Shown: piece after piece, positions 1-5,442 of the stretch | How positions within the stretch are numbered: position 1 is the first letter of the stretch | Layout of the letters: each line of letters starts with the position of its first letter | Source: Candidatus Obscuribacterales bacterium | Lineage (GTDB): Bacteria; Cyanobacteriota; Vampirovibrionia; Obscuribacterales; Obscuribacteraceae | Length of the DNA stretch: 64,000 nucleotides | Reading direction: 5' to 3' | Assembly: GCA_965228855.1 (NCBI GenBank) | Contig: CBDDIJ010000002.1 | Span: 1,120,001 to 1,184,000 of the forward strand | Translations under genes and position numbers: made by a program | Notes under the pieces: generated by a model | Databases searched by the model: none | Seen by the model: the letters and a program-made list of their open reading frames with translations, nothing else | What the model was told of the DNA's origin: nothing

Positions 1-2
1 GT

Positions 3-113
3 CTTCCAACAACGGCAGTTGAAAAATTGCGCTCAACAGACCGTCGTCTGCTGACCGCAATGCTCCAAGTAACGCGTAAGCTCGCGCTAGTTATTCCAGA
101 ACTCGTTGATTAA
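3..113 (+). CDS. Possible 3' end of a CDS entering from the left edge (LPTTAVEK...VIPELVD*)
   Basis: The only + frame open from the window start to TAA at 111-113; product cannot be assigned. Confidence 0.35.
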   Translation, partial: LPTTAVEKLRSTDRRLLTAMLQVTRKLALVIPELVD

Positions 114-456
114 AACTGGTTTGCAACGCGTTCAGCTCGCACAAGTCTGTCACCACCCGTGATACCGTCCCTGTCCGTGAAGGAAGGAGAAGTTTACTGA
201 AGTGATGAGGAGAGCAGGTGTTAGCTGGAATAATGCCTTGTTTTAGGTGGCTAGAGAAATGTATCTCGACCGTACTCTTATAGCTTTGGCTAAGCAAGAA
301 ATGAGTCGATGGACTATATCTTCTGAGATTAGATCTCTTCGTATTTCCCCTACTCGCCCGCGCGCGCGTAATAGCGCGGTTCGCGAGAGCAGATTGACTA
401 CTAAACCGACTAGCTACTAGATAGTATAAAAAGTCTATGTGACGGCGAGCGGCGTT

Positions 457-648
457 CGGCAAGGCATTCCGGATCGACGCTTGGCTTAAGGTCTGTTTTG
501 GCTACGGCTCGTAGACGCTTTTTCGAAAATCCGGCATCGTGGCGTAGACAAGCGGGGTTTCTCTCAGCCCTGGCGAGATGGTGAATTGCTCGAAAGTCTG
601 TCTGGGAGCGGGCTGTGCTCCCAAGAAGACTACGGAAAAATATAGTAG
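457..648. repeat. ~190-bp non-coding repeat, copy 1 (uninterrupted; holds an empty IS110 target-like site, core AG at 546-547)
   Basis: 457-547 is near identical to 674-765 (one indel, one substitution). 548-648 aligns colinearly but more loosely with 2022-2121. Confidence 0.85.
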
Positions 649-778
649 GCATGGAGTGGTGGCGGCGCTTGTCCGGCAAGGCATTCCCGGATCGACGCTT
701 GGCTTGAGGTCTGTTTTGGCTACGGCTCGTAGACGCTTTTTCGAAAATCCGGCATCGTGGCGTAGATAGTGTGTTAGG

Positions 779-784
779 TGTCAA
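779..784 (-). promoter_or_regulatory. Outward-facing -35 box (TTGACA) at the IS right end; half of a circle-junction promoter
   Basis: Perfect TTGACA overlapping the transposase stop codon. After circularisation it lies 17 nt from TACGTT (2012-2017). Confidence 0.8.
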
Positions 785-1743
785 GCCAGAGTGCTGTTAA
801 ACCTGGAATCGAATGGTTGTTTCGAGCGATATACAGCGACCATCATACGGAGAAGTTTGCGTGAGGCGGCACAAACAATTACTTTTCTGTTTTTTCCCTT
901 TGCTGCCAGTCGTTTAGCGAATTCAGCCACTGGCGGATTAAACCGAGTGGCGGTAAGGGCGGCCATGTACAACATGCTGCGGATCACTGGATTTCCCATC
1001 TTCGAAATTCTGGAACGTCCTCGGACTGAAGAACCGGACTCACGGATCATGGGATTCAGACCACAGAATGCTTCGATCTGGCGCAAGCTCGTAAACGAGT
1101 CCATCATCGACAGTTCTGAGAGAAACGTGAATGCTGTTCTCCAGCCGACGCCCTTAATCGTCTGGAGTAATTTAGCGTTGCTTTTCAAAGCAGGATTCTC
1201 GGAGACCAGCGTCTTCGCCAGCTTTTCCAGTGTTTGAATTTCGTTGGTAATGAACTTCAACATACGCATCTGAGAGTCTAAAGCGCGCTGGTCCAGGCGT
1301 CCCGATTTCATTCGATTTGTGACTTGGGTTTTGGTTTTCTTTAGCGCAGCGAGCTCTCTACAAATGTCTCTCAGGGAGCGAATGTCAGGATCCATCGGAG
1401 ACCAAGGAAGGGGCTCCATTTTAAAACAAAAGTCGGCGATGATTTCCGCATCGATTGCGTCGGTTTTTGAACGTCTAAATTGGCTCTTGCCGAAGGCGTG
1501 TATCAGCGCTGGATTTACCACGCTGACTCGATAGCCAAGTTTGTGTAGAAACTCCGCAAGGGGCTCCCAGAGCTTCCCCGTAGCTTCCATGCAAAAGTGA
1601 ACATCCTTACCGGATGCTTGAATCCATTTGACTATTCTCTTGAACCCAGCTGGGTTATTGCTGACGTGCAGCTTCGAATTCTTCCTGTCCTGGCGATGGC
1701 AGTCTAACGTCTCCTTCGATACGTCGATTCCAACAAAGATCAT
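781..1743 (-). CDS. IS110 family DEDD recombinase/transposase (bridge recombinase)
   Basis: 320 aa. RuvC-like DEDD motifs VGIDVSK, MEATG, KTDAIDA; Tnp domain GLNP..RESGSS (catalytic Ser) and SKMGN; RBS AGGAGG/AGGAG upstream. Confidence 0.96.
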   Translation of the reverse strand: MIFVGIDVSKETLDCHRQDRKNSKLHVSNNPAGFKRIVKWIQASGKDVHFCMEATGKLWEPLAEFLHKLGYRVSVVNPALIHAFGKSQFRRSKTDAIDAEIIADFCFKMEPLPWSPMDPDIRSLRDICRELAALKKTKTQVTNRMKSGRLDQRALDSQMRMLKFITNEIQTLEKLAKTLVSENPALKSNAKLLQTIKGVGWRTAFTFLSELSMMDSFTSLRQIEAFCGLNPMIRESGSSVRGRSRISKMGNPVIRSMLYMAALTATRFNPPVAEFAKRLAAKGKNRKVIVCAASRKLLRMMVAVYRSKQPFDSRFNSTLA

Positions 1744-1769
1744 TGCTCCTACCTCCTGTTGCTGGTTCG

Positions 1770-2005
1770 CTTGGACGCGGATAGAATCTTGTCAGGGCGA
1801 GCCTTGTTTACACGTGCTAAATCGGTCAGGATTTGCTGTAGATAGTGTTCAGCCTTAGAGGACAAGACAGGAGCGGAAGTCCGAAATCTACGCCTCTGAC
1901 TTTCTAGCCGGAGACAAAATACTGGTTTCTTCCGCTCCTCTATCCTCGCGTCCTCGGATAGCCTTGCCGACTGCACGCTCCTGGTCAACAGCAACGTACC
2001 AGTCA
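1770..2005 (-). ncRNA. Predicted bridge RNA (5' hairpin, target-binding loop, donor-binding loop); ends approximate
   Basis: 11-bp stem 1869-1879/1929-1939 encloses TTTGTCT (1912-1918) and GGCGTAG (1888-1894), matching the target. 7-bp stem 1787-1793/1861-1867 encloses ACACTATCT (1840-1848) and ACAAG (1803-1807), matching the donor junction. Confidence 0.85.
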
Positions 2006-2011
2006 ACATCT

Positions 2012-2017
2012 AACGTA
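2012..2017 (-). promoter_or_regulatory. -10 box (TACGTT) at the IS left end; half of a circle-junction promoter
   Basis: The junction reads TTGACA-cctaacacactatcttg (17 nt)-TACGTT, directly upstream of the predicted bridge RNA. Confidence 0.75.
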
Positions 2018-2183
2018 CAAGACAAACGGAGCGTCCTAGGTCTGGACGGGATGATGAATCGCTGGAAAGTCTCTCTGTGACAGGGTCTTGGTTTCGATGG
2101 CAGTACGAAGGAATATAGTAGTGGTTCTCTTAGGGGGTTTTGGTGGGGAAGGTGGAATAAGGTGTTGGGACCTCGAAACTTGA

Positions 2184-3476
2184 TTGGAAACCTTGATGAC
2201 GCACAGTGAATTTGCCGAAAGGACCACGCAGCCGATCTACAAACGGCCGCGGGTGCTCATCGCCGATTGCTCCGAAGAGTTGCGCAACTCGATTGTGGGC
2301 TGGCAAAACGAATTGCTCTGCGAGATGTTTATCTGCGACGATCCGGACAGCTCGCTGATGATGGCTGCCGGAAAGAAATTCGAGGCGATCATCATCGGGG
2401 TGGAGGCGGGCGGCGAGGAGCGCGCCCTCAATCTGGCGAGCAAGCTGCATCAGCTTCCGGACAAGAAAAACGTTCCGGTCGCGTTTCTCTTGAGCGACAA
2501 AAGTTCCGAGTCGATTATCGAGAAGGCGCAGCCCAGGTGCTTCGTATGCTTCGAGCAGCCGGAAGACTTCGAGGCGATGGCGAAGATCTCGAATCGTTTG
2601 ATGATTTTCGAGCATTACAACGCGCTGGTGGTTTCATCGGTAGCGCCGGTCACGGCAAAGCTTTCCGGTGCGCTCAAAGATGCGAGCATCAACGCCCGCT
2701 GTTCCTTGCACCCGCACAGATATCTTGAATTTCTCTACGATTTCGAGCCCGAAGTGTTTCTGATCGATGCTGAACTCAAATCGCCAACGCCTGTCGAAAT
2801 CTGCGAGAAGCTTCATCGCTCGAAGAGATGGAATTCGATGGCGGTAATTCTGTTCAGTTCATCAGGTCGAGAGATTGAAACCGAAACGCTTGATCGCTGT
2901 CAGGCAGCGGCGTCGATAGACCTGACCGACGTCGAGAAAACTGGTGCGATCGTCAAAGGCATCGCTCGCGATGTTCGCGAAAAAGCGCAGAAAGGCACTG
3001 AAAATGACTATCTCACCGGACTGCCGTTGTCCAATCAACTGTACGAGAAATATGTTCCGTTGATGGCAGAATCCAAGGGAAGCCCATTAACACTTACTCT
3101 TGCGTTGATTGACATAAAACAGCTGAAGGATGTAAACGACAGCGCCGGTCACGTTGTCGGCGACAGGGTGCTGACTGCCGTAAGCAATTTCTTGATGCAG
3201 CGCGTCGATGGAACACCCGCGATGATTTGTCGATGGGACGAGGATGAATTCGTTGTTGTGCTCAAAGCCACTACTGAAGCTGCGAAATCGTTGATCAAAA
3301 ATGCGATTCTCGATTTTAGTTTGATCAAAATCCCGTCCTACGATCAGCCCGTGAGGCTGCGTGCAGGTGTTTCATCCTTCCCGGATGATGCGGCTTCACT
3401 TGACGCCCTTCTCGACCTGGCGGCATGGCGATTGCATACCGCCAAGAAAGAACCCGATGGGGTGTGCTTCAAGTAA
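2184..3476 (+). CDS. Receiver-like domains plus degenerate GGDEF domain protein
   Basis: Two REC-like segments; DYLTGL, IDIKQLKDVNDSAGHVVGD; active-site loop RWDEDEF. Start may be ATG 2196. Confidence 0.85.
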   Translation: METLMTHSEFAERTTQPIYKRPRVLIADCSEELRNSIVGWQNELLCEMFICDDPDSSLMMAAGKKFEAIIIGVEAGGEERALNLASKLHQLPDKKNVPVAFLLSDKSSESIIEKAQPRCFVCFEQPEDFEAMAKISNRLMIFEHYNALVVSSVAPVTAKLSGALKDASINARCSLHPHRYLEFLYDFEPEVFLIDAELKSPTPVEICEKLHRSKRWNSMAVILFSSSGREIETETLDRCQAAASIDLTDVEKTGAIVKGIARDVREKAQKGTENDYLTGLPLSNQLYEKYVPLMAESKGSPLTLTLALIDIKQLKDVNDSAGHVVGDRVLTAVSNFLMQRVDGTPAMICRWDEDEFVVVLKATTEAAKSLIKNAILDFSLIKIPSYDQPVRLRAGVSSFPDDAASLDALLDLAAWRLHTAKKEPDGVCFK

Positions 3477-3519
3477 GTAACTGACTTAGCGAGGCTATCG
3501 AGAGCTTCGCTAGCGAGGA

Positions 3520-4104
3520 CTATTTGTCGCTGGGCGGCCGCATCACGGATACGAACTTACTGGACCACTGTTCGCGTCCTTCGAAGTTTTTGGTTCGGAA
3601 GTTGTGAGAGTAGATTTTTCCGTCCTCTCCGACGATTCCAACGTTTCGTCCCGGCCGGCGGTCGGTGTTTGTGAAAATGATATCGCCGGGTTTGGCCTGC
3701 TCGGCGGATGTGATGTCGACTTTTTCCCAGCCTGCCTTCTCGAGTTGGTTCGCCAGATTCTCCACGTTCATCGTGGGGGCAATTTCGGCACCACTTGCTT
3801 TCAGCAGCGAACTGACCGCAGTGGCAGAAGATAAGCCATTATCCGAGCGAACACCAAGATTTTGACCATCAAACAGTTGCGCTGCCTTGGCGACGGTCGC
3901 CGGAACGCCTGCCTGATCCATCGAGGGCATCATGCCATTGCCCAACATCTGTTCGTTTATCGAGCCCAGCCTGGAGCTTAAATCGGCAGATCCAGCTTTA
4001 GTTGCTTCCTGATTGTCAACTGAAAGTCGTTGCCCGCTTTCAGGCGTTTTTTCAATAACAGGAATTTCAGCTGCTTTGTCGCTGTTACTGTTTCTCTCGG
4101 TCAT
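3520..4104 (-). CDS. NlpC/P60 (papain-fold amidase)-like protein, probably catalytically inactive
   Basis: AKPGDIIF...GRNVGIVGEDGKIYSHN pattern; Ser at the expected Cys position (LSSATAVS) and Asn at the His position. Confidence 0.6.
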   Translation of the reverse strand: MTERNSNSDKAAEIPVIEKTPESGQRLSVDNQEATKAGSADLSSRLGSINEQMLGNGMMPSMDQAGVPATVAKAAQLFDGQNLGVRSDNGLSSATAVSSLLKASGAEIAPTMNVENLANQLEKAGWEKVDITSAEQAKPGDIIFTNTDRRPGRNVGIVGEDGKIYSHNFRTKNFEGREQWSSKFVSVMRPPSDK

Positions 4105-4302
4105 GGATTCAACCTCAAAATGCCTGCTCTATGACACTATGCCCAGGACCGGTCGGCTCGAACCCCTTGACTACTAGCCCTGAGTAGGAACCTGAGCAGT
4201 GGCGCAGAGCCACACCTCAGCTCAGAGCGAAACAGGAGCCATAGCAGACCCAGGAGCCAAAATCAGATCCAGATCCAGATCCAGAGCCGCGGAAACGGGC
4301 GC

Positions 4303-5172
4303 CTAACGACGCGGGAGAATGTACAGCGACATGTTCTTGTACTGCGGCTTTCCGTTTTCGTCGTAGAACTTCTCGTTTATGTTCTGGTCTACAACCGCGC
4401 CGGTGCGCCAGTTGTTGTGAATTACGCGAACTTCGCCGTTGCGTTTTTCGATGAAACCAATGTGATTTGAGCCATCGGAAACGTTTTTTGTCCCGGCGAT
4501 GAAACCGATCGGCCCATCAGGAAATTTGCTGATGTCGAAATCTCCGCTTAACGGAACTCGCCTGAAGCCGTGCTCTCCGAGCCATTGGCTGAGACCGGTG
4601 ACACTGATTTTGTAGTCGCGTTCGCGCATGAAGCCGGATTGCATCAGCCAGTCGCTCGATGTAGAAGCGCACTGAACGTTCTGTTCGATGACCATACCGG
4701 CAAATTCACTCGCGCCTTTCGGCACCCGATTGCCGAGCTTGGATTCGCCGACACTGTCGCGTGCCGCGCTCATCAACGCGTCCGCTGTTCCCCCGCTTCT
4801 GTTTGACGTGCGGCGGTCTGCGACCTGAATGAGTTCCGGCTGTCCATCGCCCTGGAGACTGAGATTGCCGAGTGACATCGACGCAACTTCGATAGGCGCA
4901 TTGTCCGACGGGCTTGTTCGCATTGATGCAGCCTGTACCAGATCTTTGCCGGATAAACTGCTGCCGTCACCGTTGACGAATGTTGGTGTCGACAACGAAT
5001 CTGCAATTTTCGAGTCAGGAGGCGCGCTACTGACGTCCGTGACCGACGCGCTACTAGTGTCGGTCGTCGTCGAGCTGGGTTGCGGTTTGTTCCAGGTCCC
5101 CTCCAGGAGCGCGCTTTGAACATCCGTGTTTTTGCCAGTTACGGCGTGAGCGTCGTGTGATTCTAGTCCCAT
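4303..5172 (-). CDS. Protein with low-complexity N-terminus and C-terminal NlpC/P60/CHAP-like Cys-His domain
   Basis: NVQCASTSSDWL...GSNHIGFIE...VIHNN. Start placed at ATG 5172 (MGLESHD) rather than the longest-ORF start 5322. Confidence 0.6.
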   Translation of the reverse strand: MGLESHDAHAVTGKNTDVQSALLEGTWNKPQPSSTTTDTSSASVTDVSSAPPDSKIADSLSTPTFVNGDGSSLSGKDLVQAASMRTSPSDNAPIEVASMSLGNLSLQGDGQPELIQVADRRTSNRSGGTADALMSAARDSVGESKLGNRVPKGASEFAGMVIEQNVQCASTSSDWLMQSGFMRERDYKISVTGLSQWLGEHGFRRVPLSGDFDISKFPDGPIGFIAGTKNVSDGSNHIGFIEKRNGEVRVIHNNWRTGAVVDQNINEKFYDENGKPQYKNMSLYILPRR

Positions 5173-5442
5173 GGGTTCTATAACTTCAGCGAGAAAGCGA
5201 GTGGTTTTAGTAAGTTTCTCTTTTATACGCCGCCAATGTGACGTGCGCGTGACCGATATCAATATGCCCGAAACGCCGCCAATCAAACTGCTACAGCGAT
5301 TGCAGACGTTCTCTCCCATCAAGTTTCAGTGGTCTCGGATAAATTGATCGTCCTACAGATGAAACAGACTGGGTAGAAAGATTCAAGGAAGTCACCGGCC
5401 GACACTTCAACAGGTCAGCAGTCAAACTTCGGCAGGAAAGAC

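What the first reader, a model, noticed from the sequence alone, without database searches (positions are those of the whole stretch)
764..2021. Complete IS110 bridge-recombinase system with all four RNA guide segments readable
Seen (minus strand): joining the element ends gives donor ACACTAT-CT-TGTAC, and joining the flanks gives target CGTTTGT-CT-ACGCC. The ~275-nt non-coding left end has two stem-enclosed loops. Loop 1 (stem 1869-1879/1929-1939) holds TTTGTCT, identical to the left target plus core, and GGCGTAG, the reverse complement of core plus right target. Loop 2 (stem 1787-1793/1861-1867) holds ACACTATCT, identical to the left donor plus core, and ACAAG, the reverse complement of core plus right donor. 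Established: this is the architecture of IS621-type bridge RNAs, which guide a DEDD/Ser recombinase to both DNA partners. Inference: an intact, naturally programmed RNA-guided recombinase with its own target specificity, a candidate new orthologue for programmable recombination.
Basis: partly seen in the sequence, partly recalled or inferred. Interest (0 to 1): 0.9.

Follow-up and report, generated by a model that had tools for sequence, protein, structure and literature searches.

The report
Intact IS110 bridge recombinase, repeat-targeted
This is an intact, three-copy bacterial jumping gene of the known IS110 (IS621-like) family whose upstream non-coding DNA carries guide segments matching both its own ends and its insertion site, so it likely moves as an RNA-guided recombinase; it is an ordinary new family member, though a sister element in the same genome appears to break the usual matching-core rule.

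Summary
Confirmed. Window 764-2021 (minus) is a 1,258-bp IS110-group element: 320-aa DEDD/Ser recombinase (41% identical to IS621, all five catalytic residues kept), a 278-nt left end, and a promoter (TTGACA-17-TACGTT) that forms only when the ends join. All four guides are at the stated places. The handshake dinucleotides give IS621's 1-before/3-after pairing. Three identical copies sit at matching sites of a 54-bp palindromic repeat (222 loci). Across 56 homologous loci, guides match their own flanks (9.8 of 12) better than foreign ones (6.2). Corrections: the left target guide matches 7 of 9 bases here, and the donor is 12 of 14 identical to IS621's. No expression or activity data. Verdict: new member of a known kind; this scan noted similar intact IS110s in other genomes. 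The more interesting lead lies outside the finding. A sister IS110 (4 copies, 52% identical) has the same 14-bp donor and cuts the same repeat at another box. Its target core is GT and its donor core CT. Seven of 38 well-matched homologues show such unequal cores, with the left guide tracking the target.

The parts
764..2021 (-). IS110-group element A, 1,258 bp, CT core at both ends
   Evidence: 3 copies in the genome, 0 differences over 1,258 bp, different flanks
781..1743 (-). 320-aa bridge recombinase; D7/E53/D95/D98 and S236; wedge Y259/M260/L263
   Evidence: PF01548 + PF02371; NF033542 233 bits vs cut-off 140; IS621 E 7e-63; residue mapping, 41% identity
1744..2021 (-). non-coding left end, predicted to encode the bridge RNA (about 2007 to 1787)
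   Evidence: fold of 1744-2010 z -3.36, 0 of 200 shuffles as stable; start and end inferred
2012..2017 (-). -10 box TACGTT
   Evidence: 17 nt from the -35 box once the ends are joined
779..784 (-). -35 box TTGACA, overlapping the stop codon
   Evidence: the same TTGA motif precedes the left donor in the homologues
1965..2008 (-). 5' stem-loop (predicted)
   Evidence: poorly conserved in the clade
1940..1961 (-). extra hairpin between 5' stem-loop and target loop; competes with a helix to 1773-1784 in a longer transcript
   Evidence: 2 of 6 pairs with both-side changes, 100% of cells paired in 10 clade left ends; alternative fold
1869..1939 (-). target-binding loop with 11-bp closing stem
   Evidence: 6 of 11 stem pairs with both-side changes
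1912..1920 (-). left target guide (9 nt; 7 of 9 match this site)
1886..1894 (-). right target guide (7 nt, 1894-1888) plus handshake AU (1887-1886)
   Evidence: 7 of 7 match here; changes with the flank in the 85% orthologue L016; handshake count
1787..1867 (-). donor-binding loop with 7-bp closing stem
   Evidence: 94% of cells paired, no both-side change
1840..1848 (-). left donor guide (9 of 9 match)
1801..1811 (-). right donor guide (discontinuous, 1811-1803) plus handshake GC (1802-1801)
   Evidence: IS621 precedent
1746..1757 (-). ribosome-binding site
   Evidence: sequence
764..780 (-). short right end with left donor (772-766) and core
2022..2028 (-). left target; its last 4 bases are the start of the split 54-bp repeat
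716..763 (-). right target (763-759) and remainder of the split 54-bp palindromic repeat
   Evidence: profile hit
498..551 (.). intact, empty copy of the 54-bp repeat in a tandem ~215-bp unit

Best explanation
This is an intact IS621-clade IS110 element whose left-end guide segments match its own ends and its insertion site, and it likely transposes as an RNA-guided recombinase into a 54-bp palindromic genome repeat. Shown: intact enzyme, four guides, junction promoter, three identical copies at guide-matching sites, and guide-flank covariation in homologues. Inferred from IS621: rare excision or copy-out joins the two ends. The joined TTGACA-17-TACGTT promoter then makes a ~220-nt bridge RNA and the recombinase mRNA. 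One recombinase dimer on the target loop opens TTTGT-CT-ACG(CC), another on the donor loop opens the end junction. S236 with D7/E53/D95/D98 cuts both top strands after the core T. Handshake pairing rises from 1 to 3 Watson-Crick pairs on exchange and favours insertion. Bottom-strand cuts resolve the junction.
For: Family scores and catalytic and wedge residues. Three copies identical over 1,258 bp, all at TTTGT-CT-ACG. 0 of 20,000 shuffles hold 3 or more segments. In 56 homologous loci with both junctions, own flanks score 9.8 of 12 and foreign flanks 6.2, with a permutation maximum of 6.9 in 10,000. The 85% orthologue L016 changes two right-guide bases together with its flank. Handshake 1 before/3 after, as in IS621; 29 of 38 homologues give 3 after. 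Stem covariation in 10 of 28 pairs. The 12-base guide-matched site occurs 11 times unoccupied, 9 of them in a repeat covering 0.14% of the genome.
Against: No RNA, circle or activity data. Guide positions 1-2 mismatch this site, and one copy has 2 mismatches in the right target. Position 7 is T in both target and donor (6 of 38 homologues), which Perry et al. avoid in design because it interferes with handshake pairing. The protein-free fold pairs the left and right guides with each other. Own target was strictly best in only 28 of 56 loci, since kin share targets. The donor-loop stem shows no both-side change.
Confidence: 0.9

Rival explanations
1. Guides are needed but not sufficient: the palindrome next to the target would form a DNA stem-loop that the recombinase also reads, as reported for ISPpu10.
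For: All 3 copies of A, all 4 of B and the orthologues L016 and L002 sit in the palindrome despite 1-4 guide mismatches. ISPpu10 precedent (abstract only).
Against: Base pairing alone already predicts this: 9 of 11 twelve-base and 45 of 67 ten-base matches lie in the repeat. A cuts at the repeat's edge and B inside it.
Confidence: 0.2
2. Element A is not autonomous now; its copies were moved in trans by the sister element B, which recognises the same donor.
For: A and B have the identical 14-bp donor and near-identical donor loops (90%).
Against: All 3 A copies sit at A's guide site and none at B's. The ORF and catalytic residues are intact.
Confidence: 0.05
3. The matches are chance or an assembly artefact.
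For: The 5-nt right donor segment alone occurs in 6,240 of 20,000 shuffles.
Against: 0 of 20,000 shuffles hold 3 segments; three copies in different flanks; covariation in 56 loci.
Confidence: 0.01

Closest known systems
IS621 of Escherichia coli and its bridge RNA (Durrant 2024 PMC11208160; Hiraizumi 2024 PMC11208158; Hiraizumi 2026 PMC13626964)
   Same: DEDD + serine recombinase (41% identical, catalytic residues kept); long left end; junction promoter; two guide loops; CT core; donor 12 of 14 identical; discontinuous right donor guide; handshake 1 to 3; inserts in an extragenic palindromic repeat at CT-AC.
   Different: Other target; naturally 7-nt right target guide (4 in IS621); longer left end (278 vs 193 nt to the CDS) with an extra conserved hairpin; T at position 7 in both partners; target repeat is a 54-bp four-box palindrome lying on the right of the cut.
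ISCro4 / IS622 (Perry 2025, 10.1101/2025.05.14.653916; PDB 9t56)
   Same: Same clade and architecture (E 2e-59).
   Different: ISCro4 is 88% identical to IS621 and shown active in human cells; this one is distant from both and untested.
ISPpu10 and ISPpu9 of Pseudomonas putida (10.64898/2026.03.19.712850, abstract; PMC12288879, search listing)
   Same: IS110 elements confined to copies of an intergenic palindromic repeat.
   Different: A role of target structure is not shown here; different repeat and guides.
IS1111 group (seekRNA)
   Same: Same recombinase family.
   Different: Their RNA lies downstream of the gene; here the right end is 17 nt and the RNA region is upstream.

Membership tests
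IS110 family, IS110 group (IS621 clade) | [quoted passage not shown] | tested here: met
   PF01548 E 3e-28, PF02371 E 7e-24, NF033542 above cut-off; D7/E53/D95/D98/S236
IS110 family, IS110 group (IS621 clade) | Element bounded by a short core, no further target duplication | tested here: met
   3 copies with CT at both ends; empty paralogous sites match the rejoined flanks
IS110 family, IS110 group (IS621 clade) | Long left end, short right end; sigma70 promoter formed at the joined ends | tested here: met
   278 vs 17 nt; TTGACA-17-TACGTT; sequence match only
IS110 family, IS110 group (IS621 clade) | Two loops with LTG/RTG and LDG/RDG complementary to target and donor, covarying among orthologues | tested here: met
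IS110 family, IS110 group (IS621 clade) | Handshake dinucleotides favouring the post-exchange state | tested here: met
   1 Watson-Crick pair before, 3 after, as in IS621
IS110 family, IS110 group (IS621 clade) | Bridge RNA is expressed and bound by the recombinase | not testable with these tools
   no RNA data available for this stretch
IS110 family, IS110 group (IS621 clade) | Circular intermediate; RNA-dependent, reprogrammable recombination | not testable with these tools
   needs PCR and a recombination assay; recent movement inferred from 3 identical copies
IS1111 group | Guide RNA in a long right end | tested here: not met
   right end is 17 nt; guides are in the left end
REP/REPIN (for the target repeat) | Abundant extragenic palindrome | tested here: met
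   222 loci, 203 of 221 outside ORFs of 150 aa or more
REP/REPIN (for the target repeat) | Associated Y1 (RAYT) transposase in the genome | tested here: not met
   no PF01797 match in G000, 95% complete

The most novel reading that the evidence does not exclude
This lineage shows that natural bridge recombination does not need matching cores. The sister element B (target core GT, donor core CT) and homologues with AT or TT target cores keep a CT donor, let the left target guide follow the target at position 8, and keep the right guide's G for the incoming donor C. Position 8 would then act as a third handshake base, and only the T at position 9 is the true shared core. This would widen bridge targeting from CT to any NT site without changing the donor. 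A and B would also be a natural pair that share one donor yet stay on separate sites of the same repeat.
Probability: 0.5. Interest if true: 0.55.

Novelty: new member of a known kind. Interest (0 to 1): 0.3.

Why it matters
As given, it adds one more intact, distant (41%) orthologue with a naturally extended right target guide to a family with thousands of catalogued members; useful for an orthologue screen, not surprising. The side result matters more. Current design filters for matching cores, and using different cores removed cross-reactivity between co-expressed bridge RNAs. Natural elements with unequal cores give a concrete guide design to test. Elements A and B offer a ready test of how two systems with one donor avoid cross-talk.

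Tried and rejected
Rfam: no family over 1-5000 except one sub-threshold hit elsewhere. Sequencing runs: no RNA holder listed among 24; says nothing on expression. Contigs of 4 runs showed no joint from right end to left end; contigs drop rare forms, and the best holders may be the source sample, so this is not evidence either way. The search for related loci on genome contigs gave only 2 distant loci. No RAYT found for the repeat. RNAalifold on 10 left ends recovered the target-loop stem and extra hairpin but mis-paired the donor loop with the DNA junction included in the alignment, so I counted a named structure instead. L061 was rejected as an unequal-core case because its junction call is doubtful. 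L003 (AT/CT by eye) fell below the 9-match filter. L041's automatic right-guide register was off by eye and its ORF has a stop. This element's donor and target and B's target were not found in Durrant's Supplementary Data 2. No paper held both Obscuribacterales and IS110. No structure prediction or covariance model was run; sequence evidence sufficed.

Full report
Observation. The element spans 764-2021, the ORF 781-1743, the left end 1744-2021 and the right end 764-780. In 20,000 dinucleotide shuffles of the left end none held three or more of the four guide segments. The genome (G000, 8.2 Mb) holds three copies with no difference over 1,258 bp, in different flanks, all at TTTGT-CT-ACG. Empty paralogous sites reproduce the rejoined flanks with a single CT. 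Two refinements: the left target guide is 9 nt and matches 7, 7 and 8 of 9 bases at the three sites; the right donor guide is best read as 9 nt pairing discontinuously with 7 bases, as in IS621.

Protein. It has PF01548 and PF02371 and passes the NF033542 cut-off (233 vs 140 bits). The only solved relatives at E 0.001 are IS621 and ISCro4. Against IS621 it is 41% identical, with D11/E60/D102/D105/S241 mapping to D7/E53/D95/D98/S236 and the wedge to Y259/M260/L263. The closest protein found (85%) is named as from Candidatus Obscuribacterales.

RNA. Joining the ends gives TTGACA, 17 nt, TACGTT. The left end folds better than 200 of 200 shuffles (z -3.36). On 10 clade left ends the named structure has both-side changes in 10 of 28 pairs: 6 of 11 in the target-loop stem, 2 of 6 in an extra hairpin at 1940-1961, 2 of 4 in the inner stem, 0 of 7 in the donor-loop stem (kin inflate such counts). 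Without protein, the fold pairs the guides with each other. The handshake dinucleotides (AU, GC) give 1 Watson-Crick pair before and 3 after strand exchange, the pattern reported for IS621. Position 7 is T in both partners, a state avoided in engineering and seen in 6 of 38 homologues.

Covariation. I fetched 118 loci, dropped 21 as duplicates or near-copies, and could call both junctions in 56 of the other 97. Guides matched their own flanks at 9.8 of 12 non-core positions and foreign flanks at 6.2; the best of 10,000 permutations was 6.9. Own target was strictly best in 28 of 56. For this element the score was 10, best foreign 9. The register was chosen by best match for own and foreign targets alike; where a locus had several left-junction candidates, the best-matching one was taken. 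The 85% orthologue L016 changes two right-guide bases together with its flank.

Target. The site is the edge of a 54-bp imperfect palindrome with four YGKC/GMCR boxes: 222 loci, 181 of them in the first 1.25 Mb of contig C2. Of 221 loci, 203 lie outside long ORFs and 165 have a CTAYTATA-type motif within 250 nt, mostly 70-90 nt away. An exact pattern was found in 3 of 61 genomes searched (129, 112 and 2 sites). No Y1 transposase was found. Nine of the 11 free twelve-base guide matches lie in this repeat. Insertion of IS110 elements into extragenic palindromes is known; the function of this repeat is unexplained.

Mechanism. The steps given in Best explanation are inferred from IS621. Whether exit is cut-out or single-strand copy-out is open in the literature. 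Nothing here shows expression or activity.

Sister element. Four copies of a second IS110 (B, 52% identical; C2 987926 and 198188, C5 1462393 and 861234) have the same 14-bp donor, a 90% identical donor loop and different target guides, and cut the same repeat about 30 bp further in. Their left junctions read GT and their right junctions CT, and intact neighbouring repeats show that the target core is GT. Among 38 of the 56 loci with 9 or more matches and normal spacing, target position 8 equals left-guide position 8 in 37. That position was not used in scoring. Seven of the 38 have a non-C base, all seven agreeing, and the right guide reads AG in 37. Two of the seven are B in two genomes. The right-junction core was CT in all 56. 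On a tree of 58 proteins the non-CT label needs 5 changes, counting one doubtful locus and leaving out L041. The structure paper notes a protein contact to the right-guide G, which would explain why it stays. All 3 A and all 4 B copies sit at their own site in spite of the shared donor. B's left guide also varies with its site: one copy and the G007 orthologue carry A-to-T changes that improve the match.

What is in print. Hiraizumi 2024 says the first core base is less conserved; Hiraizumi 2026 treats the core as invariant; Durrant changed both cores together and required concordant cores when extending element boundaries. I found no discussion of natural unequal cores in searches or in the passages read. 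Against novelty: Durrant's Supplementary Data 2 lists natural targets with GT, AT and TT cores. If its two lists pair by index, rows 1408 and 1410-1411 are TT target with CT donor, while rows 1462 and 1476 have matched non-CT cores. So the pattern is probably latent in published data. Subscription papers, bioRxiv supplements and one scanned Durrant supplement were not visible.

Papers seen: PMC11208160 sections 6, 7, 8, 10, 12, 19, 21, 43 (part 1), passages, supplement 5 parts 1 and 20 and searches; PMC11208158 sections 8, 12 and passages; PMC13626964 abstract, section 11 and passages; 10.1101/2025.05.14.653916, 10.64898/2026.08.31.748434, 10.64898/2026.04.29.721476, 10.64898/2026.08.14.744561, PMC13604230, PMC13396178 and PMC11187229 passages; 10.64898/2026.03.19.712850 abstract and outline; PMC12288879 search listing.

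Verdict. The finding is real and correctly interpreted, and it is a new member of a known kind: interest 0.3. The unequal-core rule seen in the sister element and homologues is the lead worth a bench test.

Noticed in passing
G000 C2:987926, C2:198188, C5:1462393, C5:861234 (L010-L013); G007 (L002): Second IS110 (B), 52% identical, same donor, different target guides, inserts in the same repeat; target core GT, donor core CT.
   Followed up: yes
L003, L005, L017, L023, L041, L046, L051, L059, L100: Homologues with AT, TT or GT at the left junction and CT at the right; left guide follows the target, right guide keeps AG.
   Followed up: partly
window 498-551 and 716-763; 222 loci, mostly C2 77 kb-1.12 Mb: 54-bp four-box palindromic repeat with a companion CTAYTATA motif 70-90 nt outside; abundant only in G000 and G007 of 61 genomes; no RAYT; more often between convergent (69) than divergent (30) genes. 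Function unexplained.
   Followed up: partly
G000 C2 0-1.25 Mb: GC content falls from 59% to 53% along the repeat-rich region, against about 50-51% elsewhere.
   Followed up: no
L012 (C5:861234) right junction: Left-donor position 7 reads C, the target's base, instead of T; could be patchy repair of the position 6-9 heteroduplex or a point change.
   Followed up: no
window 1940-1961 and 1773-1784: The extra hairpin's 3' strand can instead pair downstream of the donor loop in a longer transcript; this hairpin region is identical in A and B in spite of 51-52% protein identity.
   Followed up: partly
window 2184-3476 (+): 430-aa GGDEF protein next to the element's left flank.
   Followed up: no
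window 3520-4104 and 4303-5322 (-): Two ORFs without a Pfam match.
   Followed up: no
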